DNA from: a virus
Taxonomy: Duplodnaviria; Heunggongvirae; Uroviricota; Caudoviricetes
Reading direction: 5' to 3' (one strand)
Length of the DNA: 35,013 nucleotides
Virus record (IMG/VR): IMGVR_UViG_2534681831_000020
Coordinates: 1-35,013 of that record
Shown: in pieces, positions 25,889 to 34,628 of the stretch
Position numbering within the stretch: position 1 is the first letter of the stretch
Layout: each line of letters starts with the position of its first letter
Translations under genes and position numbers: made by a program
Notes under the pieces: generated by a model
The model's input: the letters and a program-made list of their open reading frames with translations, nothing else
Databases searched by the model: none
What the model was told of the DNA's origin: nothing

Positions 25889-26244
25889 TCACTTTCAATT
25901 TTGTAAATCTTCACGCCCAGCCGCCCACCAGAAACGAGCTGGCCGCGCACAATATTGATTTCATCAAACTGCTCGTCGTCTATGAGAAGTCCGGCATGCG
26001 TCAGCGCATCCAGTGGTGCTTTCAGGATATTGTCCAGGTCACGACGGCGCTTATCCGGTGGCTCTGCAATAATCTTTATCGCCAGCCTTCCGGACAGGTT
26101 TAATTTCAGCCGCTGCTGGCGAACAATAAGTGCCACATCCCGGCGATAACGCTCACCGGCTTTTGATACAAAATATGTGCTGCCACGACGTCGCCAGTAG
26201 GTGTTCACCGTCGGCGGGTAAGGCAAAACAAACTCTATACGCAT
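25885..26244 (-). CDS. rusA: Holliday junction resolvase RusA
   Basis: 119 aa, MRIEFVLPYPPTVNTYWRRRG...PPDKRRRDLDNILKAPLDALTHAGLLIDDEQ..., RusA motifs (catalytic DLDN). Confidence 0.8.
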   Translation of the reverse strand: MRIEFVLPYPPTVNTYWRRRGSTYFVSKAGERYRRDVALIVRQQRLKLNLSGRLAIKIIAEPPDKRRRDLDNILKAPLDALTHAGLLIDDEQFDEINIVRGQLVSGGRLGVKIYKIESE

Positions 26245-26256
26245 CAGTAACCTCTT

Positions 26257-27360
26257 TTACCCGAGCACGCCGGTTGCAAAGGCGTGATCAAGAAAACGAA
26301 AAATTAAATCAACCTGGGAACCATGCTTTTCTTCGAACGCCAGCGGATCCGCATGAAGCTCGTTGTGATGCTCCCGACACAGCGGTAGCGTGAAAATATC
26401 GTGGGATTTTGTTCCCATTCCGCCCTGACCATGACCAATCAGATGATGAGGATCGTCCGCTGGCTTACCACAACACGCACACGGCTGTGTCTTTACCCAG
26501 CGTGTGTATTTCTCATTTACCCAGCGGCGACGTTTAGGTCGTTTCATGAAGGATTCCGGAGACTCCGGATCAACGGCAATGCTGACCACCGTCTTTTCCT
26601 GTGGTGGGTTCTGTTGCTGGTGGGTGTGAGGCGGTAGCGCAATATTTTTTGTGCGCTGCTTCAGTATGCTGGTGGCGGTCTGTTCTCCCGGTATGATGTC
26701 GCTTTCACGGTATACGGAGCGGATTTTTTCCGCCGGTAATCCCAGAGAGCGACGCGATACTGCCTCAGGTAATGCGTCCACCACCTGATTGCAGACTGCC
26801 CACCAGGATAATTCAGCCAGCGATAATTCCCGCTCCTGCGTGCCATTCATTACATGGCGTATGACGTCAATCATCCAGGCTGTCAGATTTTGTTGAGTAA
26901 GTTGCTCAAGTGATTCGGAGGTCTGGTCGCGCAGCTGGTTGTCGCAGTGCCAGCACAACACCATTGCGCCAGCACCGTAACTGTGAATAACGGTTTCGCT
27001 GTGATGATAATCGCCGTGTGGCCACTGGCAGGATTTCACGTGACGTAATAACCAGTCAGACAGTGCACCAGCGCCGCCAGCTGCACGAATCACCCGCTCA
27101 TCGCTGAAAAATGGCAGCAGTGATTTATCTTCCGCCAGCGGCTGGCGAACAGCAGGAACCGCTCCAGATGGCAGCGCCCGCATGTTTTTCGGTTCCGGCT
27201 CCACCAGCACCCTGCCGCGATGAAAAACTGGCAATGATTCACGACCGGGCTTAAGGACCACCAGCCCGAGTTCCGGAACCAGAACAGGTCGAAGTAATAC
27301 CCGCACATTACCTCCAGACGCGCTGACGGTAGCAGGCATGTGTCCGTGGCAGATGTGCAC
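26257..27360 (-). CDS. DUF968-family protein with C-terminal Cys/His HNH-like motif; start uncertain (an internal start near 27183 would avoid overlap with the upstream ORF)
   Basis: C-terminus ...RWVKTQPCACCGKPADDPHHLIGHGQGGMGTKSHDIFTLPLCREHHNELH; this frame is closed upstream of 27390; positional equivalent of ydfU upstream of Q in the K-12 Qin prophage (recalled). Confidence 0.5.
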   Translation of the reverse strand: MHICHGHMPATVSASGGNVRVLLRPVLVPELGLVVLKPGRESLPVFHRGRVLVEPEPKNMRALPSGAVPAVRQPLAEDKSLLPFFSDERVIRAAGGAGALSDWLLRHVKSCQWPHGDYHHSETVIHSYGAGAMVLCWHCDNQLRDQTSESLEQLTQQNLTAWMIDVIRHVMNGTQERELSLAELSWWAVCNQVVDALPEAVSRRSLGLPAEKIRSVYRESDIIPGEQTATSILKQRTKNIALPPHTHQQQNPPQEKTVVSIAVDPESPESFMKRPKRRRWVNEKYTRWVKTQPCACCGKPADDPHHLIGHGQGGMGTKSHDIFTLPLCREHHNELHADPLAFEEKHGSQVDLIFRFLDHAFATGVLG

Positions 27361-27580
27361 GAACAGGAAGATATACAGAAACGGTCCAGGTCAGACGATC
27401 AGCGTTCAGACTCCGCTCCACACGGACACCGCGACGCAGATACGCCTCTTGAAGCATATCTGCCTCATCGATCGTACAGAACAGATAGTGAAACCAGCCA
27501 TACTGAGGCGCACGAAAACGCCTCCCCTGCTTAATTTCCGGGTCGGCTTCAGAATTGTGGGATTTTATGTGTTGTGTCAT
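27308..27580 (-). CDS. hypothetical small protein (Rem-like by position)
   Basis: 90-aa ORF between the hok-type toxin region and the DUF968 gene; overlaps the DUF968 ORF by 53 nt. Confidence 0.3.
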   Translation of the reverse strand: MTQHIKSHNSEADPEIKQGRRFRAPQYGWFHYLFCTIDEADMLQEAYLRRGVRVERSLNADRLTWTVSVYLPVRAHLPRTHACYRQRVWR

Positions 27581-27654
27581 CGGATTCTCCGGTGACAGCA
27601 GGTGTCAGTTGTTCAGGCTGACTGCGCGAATTGTAAGGCAATACGCCGGAATGT

Positions 27655-27686
27655 ACAAACAGAAAACCCGTCAGTAAGACGGGCTT
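27655..27686 (-). terminator. intrinsic terminator downstream of the YgiW-like gene
   Basis: Minus strand: aaGCCCGTCttactGACGGGCttttctgttt, a 7-bp stem with T-rich tail about 20 nt after the stop. Confidence 0.5.
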
Positions 27687-27701
27687 AACAAGCAGGGGCG
27701 G

Positions 27702-28046
27702 TTACTTTAATAATTTCAGTGCCTTTACATCAACTTCAACACTGCTCAGGTCTTTATCAATTTCACCCTCAATTCTTACTTTGTCTTTCGGAGAAACATT
27801 CTGCCCGGCCCATACGCTGTCATCAATATCCGTGACAATTGTCCCGCTATTGTCACGAAACTCATAACGTTCATCACCCACTTTTTTAACGATGCTCCCT
27901 TCAAGGATAACCCATGCATCATCCTTCAGTTCTTTTGCCTGCGCTACTGTTGAACGCTCTGCTTCTGGCCCCTGGAAACCACCCTGCTGTGCAAAAGCGC
28001 CAAAAGACACACCGGAAATAAGTGCTGCAATCAATACCTTTTTCAT
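27702..28046 (-). CDS. YgiW/YdeI (BOF) family periplasmic OB-fold protein (moron)
   Basis: 114 aa with signal peptide MKKVLIAALISGVSFGAFAQQ and GGFQGP...TVAQAKELKDDAWVILEGSIVKKVGDERYEFRDNSGTIVTDID...VRIEGEIDKD, resembling E. coli YgiW. Confidence 0.7.
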   Translation of the reverse strand: MKKVLIAALISGVSFGAFAQQGGFQGPEAERSTVAQAKELKDDAWVILEGSIVKKVGDERYEFRDNSGTIVTDIDDSVWAGQNVSPKDKVRIEGEIDKDLSSVEVDVKALKLLK

Positions 28047-28165
28047 TCATAGTCCTCTTTCAGAGATGAACATTCAAACAGCATTTTCAGTATGGTAAAG
28101 CGCGGGTGCGTTGAGGATGCCTGACACATCAGAGGTGGCGGGAGATTACTCCCCCGCCTGGTCTC

Positions 28166-28321
28166 TTACTTCTCAGATTCGTAGTCTACGAAGACAGCGA
28201 CCTCCGTCTGACCGGTTCGGATTCGCACCTCGCAGAGGTCTTTCCTCGTTACCAGTGCCGTCACTATGACGGTTAAACAGATGACGATCAGGGCGATTAA
28301 CATCGCCTTTTGCTGCTTCAT
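28166..28321 (-). CDS. hok: Hok/Gef-family type I toxin (51 aa)
   Basis: MKQQKAMLIALIVICLTVIVTALVTRKDLCEVRIRTGQTEVAVF..., near-identical over most of its length to HokD/RelF as I recall it; an upstream in-frame extension (track ORF start 28378) is Mok-like. Confidence 0.8.
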   Translation of the reverse strand: MKQQKAMLIALIVICLTVIVTALVTRKDLCEVRIRTGQTEVAVFVDYESEK

Positions 28322-28611
28322 AGCCTGCTTCTCCTTGCCTTTCGGCACGTAAGAGGCTAACCTACATGTGTTCAGCATGGATTGAGCCTCAGATTAATGT
28401 TAAGCGTCTTGCAGGACGCGTAATGTTAACTGGGGCTTTTCTCTATCTGCCGTTGGTGTTCATGCCCGAGGCAGATAGCCTCAAGCACCCGCTGCAATTC
28501 TACTTAACTATCCTTTTCCCGCAAACCGTTTTTATCCCCAGCGGCAAATCGAATACTCCACCAGCGCCACCGCCATCGCAATTCCTACCGTTGTGAATGC
28601 TTCAGGCCAGG

Positions 28612-29169
28612 TCATTGATTCACCTCCTGCGGCGGTTCTGGTAGCGACATCCAGTGGGTTGCTTGCCTAAGAGCATTACCCGGACTAACTGCTATACCTC
28701 CGCGCCGGAACGTGCCTCCGAGATAGCGTGCGGAATATATTAATGGCCCAGCCTCGCTATCGATATTCATCGAAATAAGCACGTTCTGGCTCTTTTCAGG
28801 CATTCGCTCAGTACAGCTTATCCAGCCATCCAGAGTTATCGGAGATCTGGTTGACGTTTCCGAGATTTCCCGAAAATTGTTGGTTGACGAATTCTTATTT
28901 TCCCGAAAGTTTCCGGCCTGAAGCATGGCGACGCGGCAGGCGTTCCAGCCATCAGCATATGTTTTAGTTACACCGTCGAGATGGCAGGTAAGCAAATCCA
29001 TTTCATCAGGCACTACCATTGCTATCGGCTCTGCTTCCAGTGATGCCAGCGCGATACGAAACACATTAGCCAGCAGGCTGTCTGAAGACTTGTTATCGTG
29101 CGCCGAGTCGCTCAGGAAGCCTGTGATGTATGATTTAATCTCCGCGCGTTCTCTGGTAATAGTGCTCAT
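28612..29169 (-). CDS. DUF551-family protein
   Basis: 185 aa; C-terminal ...WISCTERMPEKSQNVLI...THWMSLPEPPQ resembles the DUF551 signature of enterobacterial prophages (recalled). Confidence 0.45.
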   Translation of the reverse strand: MSTITRERAEIKSYITGFLSDSAHDNKSSDSLLANVFRIALASLEAEPIAMVVPDEMDLLTCHLDGVTKTYADGWNACRVAMLQAGNFRENKNSSTNNFREISETSTRSPITLDGWISCTERMPEKSQNVLISMNIDSEAGPLIYSARYLGGTFRRGGIAVSPGNALRQATHWMSLPEPPQEVNQ

Positions 29170-29170
29170 A

Positions 29171-29389
29171 TCAGTTTTCCTTATACGGATTAATTTTATT
29201 GTGCAGTGCGCTGAATGATTCCCATGTCACATCGGTATATAGCTCAATAACTGGTTCAAATGTCCTTCCAATTATCCAGACCAGTAATAGCGGGGATATC
29301 GGTATCATCAACACTATAAACAGAATGAAAAACAGAAACTCTGTTGTTCTGCTCTTTCGTGGGTAATTTTTTTCTAAATAATGTTTCAT
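29171..29389 (-). CDS. hypothetical small membrane protein
   Basis: 72 aa with one strongly hydrophobic helix FLFFILFIVLMIPISPLLLVWIIG; AT-rich. Confidence 0.3.
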   Translation of the reverse strand: MKHYLEKNYPRKSRTTEFLFFILFIVLMIPISPLLLVWIIGRTFEPVIELYTDVTWESFSALHNKINPYKEN

Positions 29390-29516
29390 TTCTTACCGCC
29401 CTTTCGGGCGGCCTCCTGATGTTCTGAGGGTGCAGGAATCCCTCCGGTTAAGGATTTAATAAAAATCGTTTCTGATTTAAATCTTCAGTATTTAGTTGTT
29501 AGTTGGTTTATCGCCT

Positions 29517-29828
29517 TTATGCTTCAGCCTTATTTCGCAACCAGACACAAACCGGGCCATCTTCCGTATCATGAATGGAACCAATAAACCAGCCATCGCC
29601 CTCTGGTCGTTCCGGTTCCCATGCAGAAATATCAGCATCACACGCATCAAGGTCAGCACATCCTTCATCTCTGAAGCAGAGGACGTATTGAAGATTATTT
29701 TCCTCCATCCAGGCGTTAAACTCTTCCGTTGAAATATATTCCCGACCATCACAGAATTTTTCATATTCAGGATGTGTCCAGTAGCCATATCCGTCACGAA
29801 CTACCGGCATTTCTTTAATTTTACTCAC
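29517..29828 (-). CDS. hypothetical acidic Cys-containing protein
   Basis: 103-aa ORF, MSKIKEMPVVRDGYGYWTHPEYEKFCDGREYI...; no family assigned. Confidence 0.35.
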   Translation of the reverse strand: MSKIKEMPVVRDGYGYWTHPEYEKFCDGREYISTEEFNAWMEENNLQYVLCFRDEGCADLDACDADISAWEPERPEGDGWFIGSIHDTEDGPVCVWLRNKAEA

Positions 29829-30048
29829 TGTTAACCTCCTGCAACGCTACACGATACGCCTTCTTTATCCACGCCTTACTGCCATATAATTTCGTCTTCA
29901 TAATAAACACACCTGCACGACTCGCCGATATCCCCGGACAGGTTAACAGCACAGCATCCACCACACGGTTATGCTTCCGAAACTCCATTACAGTACTGCT
30001 GATAACCACCTGCCCCACCGGGCCGTAATCCTGATACAGGATTTTCAC
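29821..30048 (-). CDS. hypothetical protein
   Basis: 75-aa ORF, translationally coupled to its neighbours. Confidence 0.3.
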   Translation of the reverse strand: MKILYQDYGPVGQVVISSTVMEFRKHNRVVDAVLLTCPGISASRAGVFIMKTKLYGSKAWIKKAYRVALQEVNSE

Positions 30049-30329
30049 GCAGACACCCTCCTGTCGAAATAAACGTAGTTATTCACTATGCGCAGCGGCA
30101 TGCCTAATTTTCTGGCAATTTCCCTTCTTTGCATGCCTCTCTGATGCAGTTGCCGCGCCAGCTCAATATCACGCTGAGAATATTTTGCCGACGGGTGAAA
30201 ATCACCACGTAACATCATGCTGATGCCCAGCTCCCGTGCCTTCGTTCTCACTGCCGCTTCAGTTCGTCCGATAAGTGCGCCAACGCTTTTTACCTTCATC
30301 GTTCCCGCACACTGCCGGAGTATCATGAT
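30045..30329 (-). CDS. hypothetical helix-turn-helix protein (start set at internal MILRQ; track ORF extends to 30449)
   Basis: Two HTH-like segments (GRTEAAVRTKARELGIS and QRGMQRREIARKLGMPLRIV). Confidence 0.35.
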   Translation of the reverse strand: MMILRQCAGTMKVKSVGALIGRTEAAVRTKARELGISMMLRGDFHPSAKYSQRDIELARQLHQRGMQRREIARKLGMPLRIVNNYVYFDRRVSA

Positions 30330-30358
30330 TTCCGCCCGGCACCACGTCTTCCACCCAC

Positions 30359-31093
30359 TCACCGCTGCTGTTCTCTGGTGGCGGTAATATCCCGGAGAAT
30401 ATCCCGGCACTTGTTCAGCTCCCGCAGCGCGGCGCAGACTCGCTCCCACTTCTGAACCTGACCTTTTGCCCGGCGCAGCTCGCGGTTAGCCACATGCAGC
30501 GATGGTAAAATCAGACCATCCGGATGCTTTCTGGTGAACGACGGCTGTGACTGCACTGTGACCGCCACACTTTCCGTTTTTATTTCTTCCTGTGTTTCCG
30601 CTTCCCCGACTGGTAACGCAACACCTGCTGGCTGAGGAAAGGCTTTACCATCCGTTTCCGCTATGGATGCGGCTTTCGGCTCTGCCGGTAAATCAGCGCC
30701 CGGTATGCAGTACCGAAATTTACCGCCCTGATTCACGCGAATCAGACGCCCTTTGCTGATTGCCATGGCCAGTGATGAATTCGCCCGGCGGGAGGTAATC
30801 CCGAACATCAGGGCCAGCTCATCCGCCGTTTGTGGGCCATGATGTTCAATCGCCTCAGTCAGCATTTGCGCTGTCACTTTCGGTACCGGTGACACTGGTT
30901 CACTTTCACCAGCCTGAATCAGCCACCACATCGAACCCTTGTTATCCGCTTCACCACGGCGCTTCAGTTTCCACAGTTCGTTGACAGCATCTTCGCGGCT
31001 GATTCCAAGGCGCGATGCCACTACCTGTGAAGAGGCTTTTTTCAGTGCTTTCAGTGCGTCAAATACAGTTTCCATTAAAACGTCCTCCAACAA
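30359..31093 (-). CDS. hypothetical protein with N-terminal winged-helix-like domain
   Basis: 244-aa ORF; N-terminal ...[26 protein letters not shown]...; located just downstream of the replication genes. Confidence 0.4.
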
Positions 31094-31096
31094 AAA

Positions 31097-31843
31097 TTAC
31101 TTCACAACCCTCTGATTGCTGACATTTGGACGCCAGCTATCCCAGTTAAACGTCACCCACCGACCACCGTTCATGGTCATGCGGTCCATAATCCTCTCAC
31201 CAAGAAGCGTGCTCATTGCGGCATGATTCAGGTTTGTTAACATCCCGACACTGCACAGTGATGCTGTCCGGCGATCAATTATCTGGTGTAATACCACCTG
31301 CTCGTTTTTCGTCTCCCGCTGAACGCCTATTTCATCCAGGACCAGCAAATCAACACTGCAAAGCTCCTGTAAAAATTTTTCCCCGGATTTGCCGTTGTCG
31401 TAGCTGTCATGCAACACGCTCATGACATCAGACACGGTGACGATAATCACGCTGCGCCCCTTCGCCATCAGCCGGTTACCCATCGCCGCTGCAAGGTGAT
31501 TTTTCCCGGTGCCGGTTTTACCGCTGAACACAAAATTCGTGCACCCGGTCATCAGTTCGTCAGCTATGGATTTGGCCTGGCTCAGCGCGTATTTTTGCCC
31601 GTCGTTCTGCACCTGATAATTCGCAAACGAGCATTTGCTGTGCAGAGGCTGGATGCCCGAACGATTCAGGATTTTTTCCACCCGCAACTGGTGATTCTGG
31701 CGGTTAATCTCCTCGCTGCGTTTTCGTCCTTCAACAAGTTGCCATTCCCGCCACTCCTCCACCGTCCGGTACGGTGGAACCGACGCCTGTGGTGCAAGTC
31801 TGCGAATACGTTCAAGAACCCCGGCTGCCGCAATGTTTTTCAT
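31097..31843 (-). CDS. replicative helicase loader, DnaC-like AAA+ ATPase (functional analogue of lambda P)
   Basis: 248 aa with Walker A FSGKTGTGKNHLAAA and Walker B LLVLDEIG; overall DnaC/IstB-like. Confidence 0.8.
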   Translation of the reverse strand: MKNIAAAGVLERIRRLAPQASVPPYRTVEEWREWQLVEGRKRSEEINRQNHQLRVEKILNRSGIQPLHSKCSFANYQVQNDGQKYALSQAKSIADELMTGCTNFVFSGKTGTGKNHLAAAMGNRLMAKGRSVIIVTVSDVMSVLHDSYDNGKSGEKFLQELCSVDLLVLDEIGVQRETKNEQVVLHQIIDRRTASLCSVGMLTNLNHAAMSTLLGERIMDRMTMNGGRWVTFNWDSWRPNVSNQRVVK

Positions 31844-31849
31844 GCCACA

Positions 31850-32926
31850 TCACCCCCTGAATCCCGGCGGAATTTCGGTATCCGGTTCAGAAATATGATT
31901 CACACAACGCTGGTTGTTCGTGCCGCTTACCGGGAGCAACCAGGGGTTCTCAAAATTCCGGTCCGGTCCAAAAAACGTCGTCGCTCGCTGAACAAATTCC
32001 GTTCCCGTTTTCCCGGTAGCCGCCAAGTATCTTGCGTAACGCCTCACGCCATCCAGCATGGCCTCTGGTGGCACCCCCTCGCGTAATCTGGCCTTCCAGG
32101 CACTGAAAGCGGATTTCTTCGGGTTTGCCCCAGCACGCAACGGGTATTCCCGCCAGACCTGTTCGAACACATCCGGATAATCCACTCGTCCCACAGGCTG
32201 CCCGGTGTTTTCCGGGACTACCCGATCGGCTTCCCGCTGAATGGCGGAATCGGCTTCAGGCTGCTGCAGTTGGTGTGATTGCTCCGGCCTTGCGGTCATC
32301 ACCTGCTGCACAGCGCCCGAATCGGCTTTCAGCGCATACGCTGAATCGGCTTCCGGTGTCGTGCCTGCTGGCTGACCAGGATTGACGGTCTGAACATCCC
32401 CTGCCTGGTTCGTGGCGTTTTTTACGCCATGGACCATAGTGTTTTGATCTTCTTGATCTGTATCTTTATCTGTATCTTTATCTGTCGTGACTCGTCGTGA
32501 CATGTGCGTGACATTTCGTGACGCGCCGTGACAATCGCCATTTTGTTCCCGCTTTCTTTCCCTCTCTCGCTGCGCCCTCTTGCGCTCTGCAGGAGATTTT
32601 GCGGTTTGCGAAATATTGCCGTTGTCCTCTTTAAGCACCTGGCGTTTTTCCCATCCAGTGATTAAATCACCATCAAGTACCCGCCCCTGCATCGTCTGCA
32701 AAATTGAATCAATTACCTCTTCTGTCACGTCGAGCGCACTTGCCAAATCTTCTGTCGTGACATCAATGTGACCTCGCGTGACATTTCGTGACGCGCTCAC
32801 CAGGAGGTGGATATACACTGCCATCACTGTTGCAATTGGCTGCCCTGACACCCTGGCAATTGTTCGCCACTTAGGGTCATTTGGCATGTCATGCCATAAT
32901 CTGAGCCAGGCGTTAGCCATACTCAC
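31850..32926 (-). CDS. replication initiator protein (functional analogue of lambda O) containing the origin iterons
   Basis: 358 aa; N-terminal DNA-binding-like domain, low-complexity DKDTDKDTD linker encoded by an AT-rich tract, and two clusters of CGTGAC iterons inside the gene; directly upstream of the DnaC-like gene. Confidence 0.6.
   Translation of the reverse strand: MSMANAWLRLWHDMPNDPKWRTIARVSGQPIATVMAVYIHLLVSASRNVTRGHIDVTTEDLASALDVTEEVIDSILQTMQGRVLDGDLITGWEKRQVLKEDNGNISQTAKSPAERKRAQRERERKREQNGDCHGASRNVTHMSRRVTTDKDTDKDTDQEDQNTMVHGVKNATNQAGDVQTVNPGQPAGTTPEADSAYALKADSGAVQQVMTARPEQSHQLQQPEADSAIQREADRVVPENTGQPVGRVDYPDVFEQVWREYPLRAGANPKKSAFSAWKARLREGVPPEAMLDGVRRYARYLAATGKTGTEFVQRATTFFGPDRNFENPWLLPVSGTNNQRCVNHISEPDTEIPPGFRG
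32440..32815. repeat. candidate origin of replication: AT-rich tract plus two clusters of (T/G/C)CGTGAC iterons
   Basis: Five CGTGAC copies at about 10-bp spacing (32485..32532), four more and one inverted copy (32744..32812), the 18-mer cgtgacatttcgtgacgcgc present in both clusters, and an adjacent tatctttatctgtatctttatctg AT-rich tract. Confidence 0.5.
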
Positions 32927-33032
32927 CTCTTCTGATACCGAATCTTTTTACTCACGAGTTGCCGGAAGCGATTCGATACGGCTATTGTCAGTCAATGTAC
33001 TGCCACAGCATTTCCTGCCGGGCCACCACGGT

Positions 33033-33416
33033 TCATCTGATTGAAACCGGCGATTGCCACTGCGCAAAATCATCAGCGTCTCTCACCAGTCGCTCCCGCG
33101 TCTCCACCAGCTCCCGAAAATAAGCTGAACTGTGGCTGCGCATTCTGGCCACCAGCAAAGGTGGCATTGCCTTTTCGATCGCTGGTAACAACGCCTGAAT
33201 TTTTTCAACTGCATCAGGGGTGTCTTTCTCTACCCAGCGGAAAATTTTCTGGGTATTGCGAGCCAGGGCTTCCGGATGGCTGTCGTCATACAGTTCAGGA
33301 AACGTCATACCCAACTCAAAATAAGCCTGGGTTATTCCAGCTGCTGGAACTTTTTCGCCATCAGGACGCGCCCAGGCATTCATCGCCATGCGGATGTGTT
33401 CATGCTTGATTTTCAT
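33033..33416 (-). CDS. YdaT-like protein (cII-position gene of Rac-type immunity regions)
   Basis: 127-aa ORF immediately downstream of and overlapping the Cro/YdaS-like gene; assigned by position and Rac-like context. Confidence 0.4.
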   Translation of the reverse strand: MKIKHEHIRMAMNAWARPDGEKVPAAGITQAYFELGMTFPELYDDSHPEALARNTQKIFRWVEKDTPDAVEKIQALLPAIEKAMPPLLVARMRSHSSAYFRELVETRERLVRDADDFAQWQSPVSIR

Positions 33417-33681
33417 GAATCAAGCTCCTAGTAAGTGGTTGTGTTAACGTTTTGGTATCTTCCAGCTCGGGCCAAATATTCATCCAATCAAAAGGCCTTA
33501 GTTGCTGACGTGTAACTTCACCATTACTGGCTCGCTCAATAAGGACACATAACGATGCCCCTAACATTTGACCTTTACTCAATGCCTTTCTTAGATAACC
33601 GATGCTAGTACCACACTCACATGCAAACATACGCTGTTCATCTGACGAAAGAGAATTGAGAAATATTCTTAATTCTTCCAT
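33400..33681 (-). CDS. Cro/YdaS-like transcriptional regulator
   Basis: 93 aa, ...CGTSIGYLRKALSKGQMLGASLCVLIERASNGEVTRQQLRPFDW...; AGGAG Shine-Dalgarno 6 nt upstream; divergent from the repressor gene. Confidence 0.6.
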   Translation of the reverse strand: MEELRIFLNSLSSDEQRMFACECGTSIGYLRKALSKGQMLGASLCVLIERASNGEVTRQQLRPFDWMNIWPELEDTKTLTQPLTRSLIHENQA

Positions 33682-33684
33682 AGC

Positions 33685-33780
33685 TACTCCTTAGTAAACA
33701 CAGCAAGAATACCCACAGGTAAACAAAAGTCAATACCCTTGGGTTGTTTACCTTGCGGTAATCGCATCTATTATTTACCT
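33685..33780. promoter_or_regulatory. divergent promoter/operator region between the cro-like and repressor genes
   Basis: Three GTAAACA half-sites (two direct, one inverted, forming GGTAAACAA-N18-TTGTTTACC) and a repeated AATACCC(A/T) motif in the 100-bp intergenic region. Confidence 0.4.
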
Positions 33781-34199
33781 ATGGACAAATATGAATTTAG
33801 ACGACAACAACTCATCAAAATTCGTGATGAGAAATGCGATGGTAAAGCGGTTAACGTGGCCAGAAAGATCGGTCGCGAGCCTTCTTATGTATCAAGAATG
33901 TTGTACCCAGAGGGGAAAAAAGGAAAAAACGGATCGCTGATGATATGGTGGAGATTATAGAAGAGTCCTTTGGGTTACCCCGGGGATGGATGGATGGTAT
34001 CGTTTCATCATCAACGAACACAGCCTCCAATTATGAAACAAGGGTTCTAACGCCACGACAACGTATTTTTTTAGATCTCTTAGACGAACTGCCAGAAAGT
34101 GAAGCGGATAACTTATTAAAAACTCTTGAAGAGAAAAAACAGTATTACAATATGATCTACGAAGAAATCCGTAAAAAGAAAGCACAAAACGCATCATAA
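33781..34199 (+). CDS. DicA/RacR-like prophage repressor; frame interrupted by a 1-nt difference in an A-run (33916..33929)
   Basis: N-terminal HTH (MDKYEFRRQQLIKIRDEKCDGKAVNVARKIGREPSYVSRM, track ORF 33739..33960) continues in the next frame (...KRIADDMVEIIEESFGLPRGWMD...LTPRQRIFLDLLDELPESEADNLLKTLEE, track ORF 33945..34199); the C-terminal LPESE motif resembles DicA. Confidence 0.55.
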
Positions 34200-34383
34200 C
34201 TCACCAAACAACCAGTCACCAGTTAAGACACATCAAAAAATTACCCATGGGTATTTACTTTTTAAATACCCATAGGTATCCTTCCTTTCATACCAACCCA
34301 CCCCGTCCCACAGAACGCAGGGCAATACTTCGAGTTACCAGGCAGTGGTCAGGGGGTAAGTAGCCAGCCCGAGGCGTAAGAAC

Positions 34384-34617
34384 ATGACGGCAGGGTTCAA
34401 CTTTAATAACTATGCAGCAGGTTTTTGTTCCGCTACCCCGGCGTTAAGGGGAAATGAGGTCAGCATGGATACTATCGATCTTGGCAACAGCGAATCTCTG
34501 GTATGCGGCGTGTTTCCCAACCAGGACGGTACGTTTACCGCGATGACGTATACCAAAAGTAAAACGTTTAAAACCGAAGCTGGCGCGCATCGCTGGTTAG
34601 CAAGAAACTCCGACTGA
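34384..34617 (+). CDS. hypothetical small protein (likely shorter; internal start MDTIDLG...)
   Basis: ORF downstream of the repressor on the same strand. Confidence 0.25.
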   Translation: MTAGFNFNNYAAGFCSATPALRGNEVSMDTIDLGNSESLVCGVFPNQDGTFTAMTYTKSKTFKTEAGAHRWLARNSD

Positions 34618-34628
34618 TGAGGTTGACG

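What the first reader, a model, noticed from the sequence alone, without database searches (positions are those of the whole stretch)
28166..28420. hok-type type I toxin locus inside the prophage
The 51-aa ORF is a Hok/Gef-family membrane toxin with an in-frame upstream Mok-like extension. By analogy with hok/sok, a short antisense RNA should be encoded on the plus strand over the leader (roughly 28330..28420), and a GC-rich hairpin lies just after the stop (28135..28158). Unlike the Qin prophage, no relBE genes are adjacent.
Basis: partly seen in the sequence, partly recalled or inferred. Interest (0 to 1): 0.5.

Follow-up and report, generated by a model that had tools for sequence, protein, structure and literature searches.

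The report
Known hokW-sokW toxin-antitoxin locus
This is a complete, textbook hok/mok/sok type I toxin-antitoxin cassette, almost base-for-base the same as the hokW-sokW locus of Shiga-toxin phage Sp5, which was annotated long ago and tested experimentally in 2021, so it is real but ordinary.

Summary
The 51-aa ORF (28166..28321, minus strand) is a Hok/Gef toxin (Pfam 4.3e-23) with an in-frame 70-aa Mok reading frame. The leader matches Rfam RF01794 at 113.5 bits.

The locus is larger than the reported interval:
- The hok mRNA starts at 28490 and runs at least to 28104.
- The antisense Sok RNA is 28370..28440 (+), with its promoter at 28335..28363.

Over this 396-nt unit the window is 99.5% identical to hokW-sokW of phage VT2-Sakai/Sp5, and the Hok protein is identical. 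GenBank AP000422 already annotates mokW, hokW and sokW there. Takada et al. 2021 showed toxicity, antitoxin activity and a role in phage release; their primers and probes match the window.

All R1-type RNA elements are present: tac/fbi, ucb/mok-SD, dcb, the post-stop hairpin and the Sok hairpin. They are supported by folding (z = -7.1) and by compensatory changes in 72 homologs.

K-12 hokD keeps only the part from the hok Shine-Dalgarno onward. That explains the missing relBE link.

Two points are not covered in the hokW paper. This allele has no terminator after fbi and runs into a YgiW-like gene. It also sits co-oriented in the early-right operon.

Verdict: already known, low interest.

The parts
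28497..28525 (-). hok/mok mRNA promoter: -35 TTTGCG (28520..28525), 17-nt spacer, -10 TAGAAT (28497..28502), 6 nt before the +1 G at 28490
   Evidence: Read from the sequence. A TAGAAT, TAAGAT, TACAAT or TAAAAT hexamer sits at the same distance before GGGTGC in most of the unrelated upstream contexts. The simple consensus scan did not report it because the -35 is weak. No transcription start was mapped here.
28104..28490 (-). hok mRNA unit, from tac to fbi. The true 3' end is undefined in this allele.
   Evidence: The Rfam model starts at 28490. Homology to more than 90 loci, down to 69% identity, begins at nt 1 and ends at nt 387-396. Other phages share only 28096..28503 or 28104..28492. The 396-nt fold has MFE -162.6 kcal/mol, z = -7.1.
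28479..28490 (-). tac element, GGGUGCUUGAGG, at the 5' end of the mRNA
   Evidence: It pairs with fbi in the full-length MFE. This helix is paired in 98% of cells across 72 homologs, with one G-C to A-U double change and several G-U changes. It pairs with ucb in the Rfam consensus structure.
28432..28438 (-). ucb, the anti-Shine-Dalgarno box AAGCCCC
   Evidence: It pairs with the mok SD region in the full-length MFE. It pairs with tac in the Rfam consensus structure. Role as described for R1 in PMC9841398.
28370..28440 (+). Sok antisense RNA (sokW allele), 71 nt: a single-stranded 5' tail followed by a long hairpin and GGGGCUUUU
   Evidence: The misc_RNA sokW of AP000422.1 maps to these coordinates. 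Fold -30 to -31.5 kcal/mol, z = -5.2. Northern probe YO-592 of PMC8621323 matches 28370..28399 exactly.
28335..28363 (+). Sok promoter: -35 TTGCCT (28335..28340), 17-nt spacer, -10 TAACCT (28358..28363)
   Evidence: The promoter-killing primer YO-421 of PMC8621323 changes exactly 4 bases around this -10. Among 72 homologs the -35 is TTGCCT or TTGACC, and the -10 is mostly TAACCT or TAATCT.
28166..28378 (-). mok reading frame (70 aa, in frame with hok). Its SD GAGG is at 28387..28390.
   Evidence: ORF list. Annotated as mokW in AP000422. The ATG is kept in 70 of 72 homologs, while the frame relative to hok varies.
28353..28358 (-). dcb box AGCCUC, which pairs with the mok SD in the open (truncated) conformation
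   Evidence: Constrained fold of the truncated RNA. Named by analogy with R1 (PMC9841398). Inferred.
28166..28321 (-). hok toxin gene (51 aa). Its SD GGAG is at 28331..28334.
   Evidence: Pfam HOK_GEF 4.3e-23. The coding sequence is identical to hokW of Sp5.
28137..28158 (-). GC-rich hairpin just after the stop codon; probable protective 3' stem-loop of the processed mRNA
   Evidence: MFE fold. 97.3% of cells paired, and 5 of 9 pairs with compensatory changes. The role is inferred from R1 (PMC9841398).
28104..28116 (-). fbi element CCUCAACGCACCC, complementary to tac with one bulged C
   Evidence: Retained in K-12 hokD.
27702..28046 (-). BOF (YgiW/YdeI-family) gene directly downstream, with no terminator between it and fbi. 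It belongs to the block shared with Sp5.
   Evidence: Pfam BOF 1.9e-33. No terminator found. The shared block is 27655..28630, 97.2% identical to Sp5. Co-transcription with hok is not shown.
27664..27686 (-). First terminator-like hairpin on the minus strand downstream of hok, located after the BOF gene
   Evidence: Consensus scan: 9 pairs, followed by TCTGTTTG. This is a pattern match only.

Best explanation
The locus is an intact hok/mok/sok type I toxin-antitoxin cassette, an allele of hokW-sokW, carried in a lambdoid prophage of an E. coli O111-like strain.

Proposed mechanism:
1. A weak promoter produces the hok mRNA starting at 28490.
2. In the full-length RNA the 5' tac pairs with the 3' fbi, and the ucb box covers the mok Shine-Dalgarno. 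Neither mok nor hok is then translated.
3. Removing the 3' end up to the post-stop hairpin frees tac. Tac pairs with ucb instead, which exposes the mok ribosome-binding site.
4. Translation of mok is needed for translation of hok.
5. The 71-nt Sok RNA comes from a promoter inside the leader. It is complementary to nt 51-121 of the mRNA, which covers ucb, the mok SD, the mok AUG and two more codons. It blocks mok translation and marks the duplex for cleavage.
6. When Sok is lost, Hok is made, enters the inner membrane and stops growth or lyses the cell.

Basis of each step. Shown here by sequence and comparison: all the elements, their pairings and their conservation. Shown by others on the 99.5% identical allele: toxicity, Sok antitoxin activity, partial RNase III and Hfq dependence, loss of Sok and RecA-dependent HokW production after mitomycin C, and twofold more phage released. 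Inferred by analogy with R1: 3' processing, refolding and mok-hok coupling.
For: - Toxin family: Pfam 4.3e-23.
- Leader: full-length Rfam RF01794 match at 113.5 bits.
- Identity to hokW-sokW: 99.5% over 396 nt with identical coding sequence. GenBank features mokW, hokW and sokW map onto the window.
- Primers and probes of PMC8621323: of the 16 checked, 14 match the window exactly, one differs at 1 base, and the mutagenic one differs at its 4 designed bases.
- Full-length fold: it pairs tac with fbi and ucb with the mok SD; z = -7.1.
- Comparative support in 72 homologs: 92.9% of cells are paired against 34-43% when partners are slid. 33 pairs show changes on both sides against 6-20 when slid.
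- Conformational switch: the tac/ucb state lies 10 kcal/mol above the MFE in the full-length RNA, but only 2.1 kcal/mol above it in the truncated RNA.
- Conservation: both promoters, the mok ATG and the hok SD are conserved across homologs.
- Published function and mechanism: PMC8621323 and PMC9841398.
Against: - No transcript, toxicity or antitoxin data exist for this exact sequence.
- The simple promoter and terminator scan found nothing in 27900..28700.
- Unlike most homologs, this allele has no intrinsic terminator after fbi. It is therefore unclear how a transcript with fbi near its 3' end arises.
- The unconstrained MFE of the truncated RNA gives a local 5' hairpin, not tac/ucb. This resembles the metastable structure described for R1.
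- Two substitutions separate the window from the tested allele. One lies in a hairpin loop within Sok, the other just 5' of the post-stop hairpin.
Confidence: 0.93

Rival explanations
1. The cassette is a decayed, silent relic. Several chromosomal hok loci of E. coli K-12 are like this, having been reported unable to mediate post-segregational killing or to respond to rifampicin.
For: Chromosomal hokA, hokB and hokC loci were reported inactive in such tests (bioRxiv 10.1101/2025.08.07.668861). K-12 hokD has lost its whole leader. This allele lacks the usual terminator.
Against: Every element is intact and conserved. The coding sequence is identical to that of a locus shown to be toxic and Sok-regulated (PMC8621323). 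Copies with 99% identity or more occur in 505 records.
Confidence: 0.04
2. The molecular parts are the same, but the biological role is prophage addiction: killing cells that lose the prophage. It would not be help with lysis at induction.
For: The GenBank notes for mokW and hokW read 'prophage maintenance'. [quoted passage not shown]
Against: No test of prophage stabilisation was reported. The only experiments on this allele show a lysis and release phenotype at induction. The two roles are not mutually exclusive.
Confidence: 0.3
3. The role is abortive-infection defence against superinfecting lytic phages. Shut-off of host transcription would deplete Sok and release Hok.
For: R1 hok/sok on a high-copy plasmid reduced T4 plating by 42% (cited in PMC8621323).
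Against: hok genes were reported as not enriched near defence systems (section title). There are no data for hokW-type loci, and the effect was seen only at high copy number.
Confidence: 0.15
4. In this prophage, hok is expressed mainly as part of a longer read-through transcript from the early-right operon, as hokD is with relBE. It would then not be a self-contained tac-to-fbi mRNA.
For: hok is co-oriented with all neighbouring genes from the replication genes to the Q-like gene. No terminator lies between DUF551 and hok, or between fbi and the BOF gene. HokW production in Sp5 needs RecA-dependent induction.
Against: A conserved -10 sits 6 nt before the conserved GGGUGC. hokW mRNA is present before induction and does not increase after mitomycin C. 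Orientation of hok relative to flanking ORFs across contexts was inconclusive: 8 same, 6 opposite, 23 unclear upstream.
Confidence: 0.2

Closest known systems
hokW-sokW (mokW/hokW/sokW) of Stx2 phage Sp5 / VT2-Sakai (933W L0137, L0138, L0144), E. coli O157:H7 Sakai
   Same: - 99.5% identity over the 396-nt mRNA unit, with an identical Hok protein.
- Same mok frame, Sok promoter and Sok RNA.
- Same flanking small ORF, BOF gene and terminator, within a 976-bp block that is 97.2% identical.
- Same absence of a terminator after fbi.
   Different: - Two substitutions in the transcribed unit and two in the promoter region.
- Different position in the phage genome. Here the block lies between the replication genes and the Q-like gene, on the same strand as the early-right genes. 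In Sp5 it lies at the far right end of the prophage, on the strand opposite to the late genes.
- The host prophage carries no stx genes in the usual place.
hok/mok/sok (parB) of plasmid R1
   Same: Same parts list: tac, fbi, ucb, dcb, mok, hok, Sok antisense to the mok start, and a protective 3' stem-loop.
   Different: - The protein is only 44% identical to R1 Hok (PMC8621323).
- mok is in frame with hok here.
- The hairpin shared by the mRNA and Sok carries a 16-nt insertion relative to the Rfam consensus.
- No terminator follows fbi.
- It is carried on a prophage, and the reported role is phage release rather than plasmid maintenance.
hokD (relF) of the Qin cryptic prophage, E. coli K-12
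   Same: - Same toxin subfamily: 47 of 51 residues identical (sequences).
- 93.8% DNA identity from the hok SD to fbi.
- Similar downstream gene order ending in DUF968/YdfU and a Q-like gene.
   Different: - hokD lacks tac, ucb, the mok start, the Sok target and the Sok promoter. relE abuts the hok SD.
- hokD keeps the terminator after fbi that the window lacks.
hokC/mokC (gef) of E. coli
   Same: mok is in frame with hok. The Sakai annotation labels the Sp5 gene 'regulatory protein MokC for HokC'. hokC-like loci align over the full unit at about 73-75% identity.
   Different: Hok protein identity is about 78-80%. The Sok hairpin is shorter (gap in alignment A2). hokC-like loci have their own hairpin plus a T-run after fbi.

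Membership tests
hok/mok/sok type I toxin-antitoxin family | Small Hok/Gef membrane toxin (PF01848) | tested here: met
   81.1 bits, E = 4.3e-23, full profile 1-42 matched.
hok/mok/sok type I toxin-antitoxin family | mok leader reading frame with its own SD, starting upstream of hok and running over the hok start | tested here: met
   ATG at 28378 and SD GAGG at 28387..28390. The ATG is kept in 70 of 72 homologs. The frame relative to hok varies (49 in frame), as expected if translation matters rather than the peptide.
hok/mok/sok type I toxin-antitoxin family | cis-encoded antisense Sok RNA covering the mok translation start, with its own promoter | tested here: met
   At sequence level: -35 TTGCCT, -10 TAACCT and a 71-nt RNA with a 5' tail plus hairpin. 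The sokW annotation maps to 28370..28440. The transcript was detected on the 99.5% identical allele with a probe identical to the window. It was not measured for this sequence.
hok/mok/sok type I toxin-antitoxin family | Long-range tac/fbi pairing that closes the full-length mRNA | tested here: met
   12 pairs with one bulge in the MFE. 98% of cells are paired in 72 homologs. These pairs vary little, so most of the support is conservation. One pair shows a double change and several show G-U.
hok/mok/sok type I toxin-antitoxin family | Leader able to switch between ucb/mok-SD pairing (closed) and tac/ucb pairing (open) | tested here: met
   The closed form is seen in the full-length MFE. The open form is the Rfam consensus, matched at 113.5 bits. 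The energy gap is 10 kcal/mol in the full-length RNA and 2.1 kcal/mol in the truncated RNA. These are thermodynamic predictions only.
hok/mok/sok type I toxin-antitoxin family | Intrinsic terminator shortly after fbi. This is typical of the family rather than strictly defining. | tested here: not met
   No terminator in 27900..28700. Most homologs carry AACCCGCTTCGGCGGGTTTTT or an equivalent after fbi, but the hokW-type alleles do not.
hok/mok/sok type I toxin-antitoxin family | Toxicity of Hok, neutralisation by Sok, and activation by 3' processing | not testable with these tools
   Toxicity and neutralisation were published for the identical protein and a near-identical locus (PMC8621323). 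Processing of hokW mRNA was left open by those authors.
hokW-sokW allele group of Stx and lambdoid phages | Near-identity of the whole unit and of its flanks to the Sp5 locus | tested here: met
   99.5% over 396 nt, and 97.2% over the 976-bp block 27655..28630.
relBE-hokD operon type (Qin) | hok without its own leader, fused downstream of relBE | tested here: not met
   The full leader is present, and the upstream gene is DUF551, not relE.

The most novel reading that the evidence does not exclude
In hokW-type cassettes the family's own terminator has been replaced by a YgiW-like BOF gene that shares a downstream terminator. In this prophage the cassette lies co-oriented inside the antiterminated early-right operon.

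The untested reading has two parts. First, hok and the BOF gene form one transcript. Second, prophage induction activates Hok through read-through sense transcription: it would run into the Sok promoter and titrate Sok. This differs from the classical route, in which Sok simply decays after its gene is lost. If true, it would explain the unexplained RecA-dependent disappearance of sokW RNA.
Probability: 0.2. Interest if true: 0.4.

Novelty: already known. Interest (0 to 1): 0.1.

Why it matters
It adds little. The locus is a named, annotated and experimentally studied toxin-antitoxin system, and related sequence occurs in 4716 of 5426 complete E. coli genomes.

Three things are useful:
- Corrected coordinates for the whole unit.
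- A warning that Rfam RF01794 'sok' reports the hok-sense strand. Automated annotation would therefore place Sok on the wrong strand.
- Two open points on hokW-type alleles: the missing terminator with linkage to the BOF gene, and co-orientation with early phage transcription. These bear on how prophage induction triggers Hok, a question the hokW authors left open.

Tried and rejected
- Second hok copy. A first BLAST seemed to show a second, truncated hok copy in the same prophage. It was the K-12 hokD locus stored in the same file. A window self-comparison found only the one copy.
- Location of hokW in Sp5. I looked between the methylase and antirepressor genes and found nothing. It lies at the right end of the prophage.
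- Consensus scan. The promoter and terminator scan found no sites in the locus. The promoters were placed instead from conservation and from the published mutagenesis primer.
- Truncated mRNA fold. The unconstrained fold did not give the tac/ucb state. A constrained fold was needed.
- Orientation rule. The test of whether hok is generally co-oriented with its neighbours was inconclusive. Upstream contexts gave 8 same, 6 opposite and 23 unclear. Downstream contexts gave 10 same, 2 opposite and 15 unclear.
- Hypervariable patches. The 5' hairpin loop (nt 31-39) and the mok codons 2-4 / Sok 5' end (nt 116-125) do not co-vary. Alleles combine them freely.
- Searches not run. Protein homology, protein structure and solved-structure searches were skipped because the family assignment was already unambiguous.

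Full report
**Observation.**
- The minus strand of 28166..28321 encodes a 51-aa protein, MKQQKAMLIALIVICLTVIVTALVTRKDLCEVRIRTGQTEVAVFVDYESEK.
- It matches Pfam HOK_GEF at E = 4.3e-23 over the whole profile.
- An ATG at 28378 opens a 70-aa frame that runs in frame into hok.
- A gathering-threshold Rfam scan of the whole window found RF01794 ('sok') at 28490..28316 with 113.5 bits, E = 2.6e-25.
- This match is on the minus strand, the same strand as hok. The model begins with GGGUGCUUGAGG and ends at the hok AUG, so as built it describes the hok mRNA leader, not the antisense RNA. The plus strand scores only 11.5 bits.

**Identity.**
- The 511-bp region is 100% identical to many E. coli O111 chromosomes, where the gene is annotated 'Hok/Gef family protein'. 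Related sequence occurs in 4716 of 5426 complete E. coli genomes, with a median of 2 and up to 10 places per genome.
- In the phage collection the 396-nt unit is 99.5% identical to phage VT2-Sakai (AP000422.1), which carries the features mokW, hokW and 'sokW: SokW antisense RNA'.
- Mapped onto the window, these features are mokW 28378..28166, hokW 28321..28166 and sokW 28370..28440 on the plus strand.
- A direct alignment with the Sp5 prophage of O157:H7 Sakai shows two substitutions in the transcribed unit. One is in a hairpin loop and one is just 5' of the post-stop hairpin. Two more lie in the promoter region, and none is in the coding sequence.
- Takada et al. 2021 (PMC8621323) studied this locus experimentally. 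Of their 16 oligonucleotides checked, 14 match the window exactly, one has a single mismatch, and the Sok promoter-killing primer differs at its four designed bases. That places the Sok -10 at 28358..28363.

**Anatomy** (mRNA nucleotide n corresponds to window coordinate 28491 - n).
- hok promoter: -35 TTTGCG at 28520..28525 and -10 TAGAAT at 28497..28502, with +1 at 28490. A TAGAAT-like hexamer sits 6 nt before GGGTGC in most otherwise unrelated upstream contexts.
- tac 28479..28490.
- ucb 28432..28438.
- mok SD 28387..28390 and mok AUG 28376..28378.
- dcb 28353..28358.
- hok SD 28331..28334 and hok AUG 28319..28321.
- Stop codon 28166..28168.
- Post-stop hairpin 28137..28158.
- fbi 28104..28116.
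- On the plus strand: Sok -35 TTGCCT 28335..28340, a 17-nt spacer, -10 TAACCT 28358..28363, and the RNA at 28370..28440.
- Sok folds into a single-stranded 5' tail and a long hairpin followed by GGGGCUUUU (-30 to -31.5 kcal/mol, z = -5.2).
- Sok is complementary to mRNA nt 51-121. It covers ucb, the mok SD, the mok AUG and two further codons, but not the hok SD or AUG.

**Structure evidence.**
- The 396-nt RNA folds at -162.6 kcal/mol, against -121.4 ± 5.8 for shuffled sequences (z = -7.1). Its first 12 nt pair with fbi, and ucb pairs with the mok SD.
- I fetched 127 related loci from GTDB genomes and IMG/VR. Homology to the window starts at mRNA nt 1 and ends at nt 387-396, even at 69% identity in Photorhabdus and Erwinia.
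- On 72 distinct full-length homologs (alignment A2) the window's MFE structure is paired in 92.9% of cells, against 34-43% when the partners are slid by 1-3 columns.
- 33 pairs and 200 cells show changes on both sides, against 6-20 pairs and 30-58 cells in the slid controls. No shuffle out of 500 reached the observed values.
- The structure was derived from one of the aligned sequences, which favours it somewhat.
- The tac/fbi helix is 98% paired but nearly invariant. The post-stop hairpin has 5 of 9 pairs with compensatory changes, and the Sok/target hairpin has 7 of 19.
- Enforcing tac/ucb pairing costs 10 kcal/mol in the full-length RNA but only 2.1 kcal/mol in an RNA cut after the hairpin.
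- The unconstrained fold of the cut RNA gives a local 5' hairpin. This resembles the metastable structure described for R1 (PMC9841398).

**Mechanism.**
- The sequence encodes all the parts of the R1 model as summarised in PMC9841398: a closed full-length mRNA, activation by 3' trimming up to a protective stem-loop, refolding to tac/ucb, mok-dependent hok translation, and Sok binding followed by RNase III cleavage.
- For the Sp5 allele, published data show that HokW is toxic and that sokW from its own promoter neutralises it. Neutralisation depends partly on RNase III and Hfq.
- Mitomycin C makes sokW RNA disappear while hokW mRNA persists. HokW then appears in the inner membrane in a RecA-dependent way, about 1 h before the endolysin.
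- Deleting the locus halves phage release.
- Processing, refolding and mok coupling are inferred for this locus. Those authors left them open.

**Context.**
- Window 22170..35013 is 99.9% identical to the E. coli O111:H- 11128 chromosome.
- The gene order on the minus strand is: regulators, replication genes, DUF4014, DUF551, hok, BOF, a 90-aa ORF, DUF968, RusA, DUF1133, three tRNAs, and then the lysis and structural genes. The cassette therefore lies in the early-right region of a lambdoid prophage and is co-oriented with it.
- In Sp5 the same 976-bp block (27655..28630, 97.2% identical) lies at the far right end of the prophage, on the strand opposite to the late genes.
- Other phages share only 28096..28503 or 28104..28492, which is the tac-to-fbi cassette alone.
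- K-12 hokD aligns only from the hok SD onward, with relE directly upstream. It has lost tac, ucb, the mok start and the Sok promoter.

**Differences from the family norm.**
- Most homologs carry an intrinsic terminator about 7 nt after fbi. The hokW-type alleles, including the window, do not. They run into the SD of a signal-peptide-bearing BOF (YgiW/YdeI-family) gene.
- The first terminator-like hairpin follows that gene, at 27664..27686. How a transcript with fbi near its 3' end arises is therefore open. The hokW paper does not mention a terminator, mokW or the downstream gene.
- Among alleles at least 90% identical to the window, variation is concentrated in two patches: the loop of the 5' hairpin (nt 31-39) and nt 116-125, which correspond to mok codons 2-4 and the 5' end of Sok.
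- Three co-resident full-length copies in one E. coli genome, and three in one Shigella genome, differ in the second patch. This fits a role in Sok specificity but does not prove one.

**Verdict.** It is also already known. It is annotated as mokW/hokW/sokW in the VT2-Sakai GenBank record, it was characterised in 2021, and it belongs to a family recently catalogued as enriched in prophages. Interest is low. The only openings are the missing terminator with BOF linkage, and the possible link between early phage transcription and Hok activation.

Noticed in passing
window 28532..28615 (-): Unannotated 27-aa hydrophobic ORF (MTWPEAFTTVGIAMAVALVEYSICRWG). It has a strong SD (AGGAGG, 28621..28626) and an ATGA overlap with the DUF551 stop codon, and it ends just before the hok -35. 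It lies inside the block shared with Sp5. Among 19 related loci that carry the same start motif, 18 have an intact 27-aa version and one is frameshifted. The Sp5 copy differs at 7 residues but keeps the same length.
   Followed up: partly
window 28178..28184 (-), Tyr47 codon 28181..28183: The hok Tyr47 codon UAC sits in a predicted 7-nt hairpin loop, CUACGAA. TACG is invariant in all 72 homologs. This is the TadA A-to-I editing motif (Tyr to Cys) reported for hok genes (bioRxiv 10.1101/2025.08.07.668861). From my own knowledge, not tested here, the loop also resembles the tRNA-Arg2 anticodon loop.
   Followed up: partly
window 28366..28375 and alignment A2 columns 121-130: The patch covering mok codons 2-4 and the 5' end of Sok is hypervariable among otherwise >=90% identical alleles (mean pairwise difference 0.38, against <0.05 in the hok coding sequence). 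The mok frame relative to hok also varies: in frame in 49 of 72 homologs, shifted in the rest. This suggests selection on the RNA (Sok specificity) rather than on the Mok peptide.
   Followed up: partly
window 28047..28103 (-) and 27664..27686 (-): There is no terminator between fbi and the BOF (YgiW-like) gene, unlike most hok homologs. The first terminator-like hairpin follows the BOF gene. The block shared with Sp5 ends just past it, at 27655.
   Followed up: partly
window 28316..28490: Rfam RF01794, named 'sok antitoxin', scores on the hok-sense strand and ends at the hok AUG. It therefore marks the hok leader. The true Sok gene is on the opposite strand, inside the hit.
   Followed up: yes
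window 18837..23776: Stx phages carry stx between the ileZ-argN-argO tRNAs and the SASA-family esterase gene. In that position this prophage instead has an IS66-family element interrupted by an IS1203/IS629 copy (ALIL frameshift pseudoknot hit at 21195..21311), plus TerB and DUF3927 genes. No stx genes are annotated there.
   Followed up: no
window 18975..19147 (-): Rfam hit to the prophage sRNA family STnc100 (104.7 bits), just upstream of the SASA esterase gene. A 2026 preprint links STnc100 to the PasD sRNAs of Stx-type phages.
   Followed up: no
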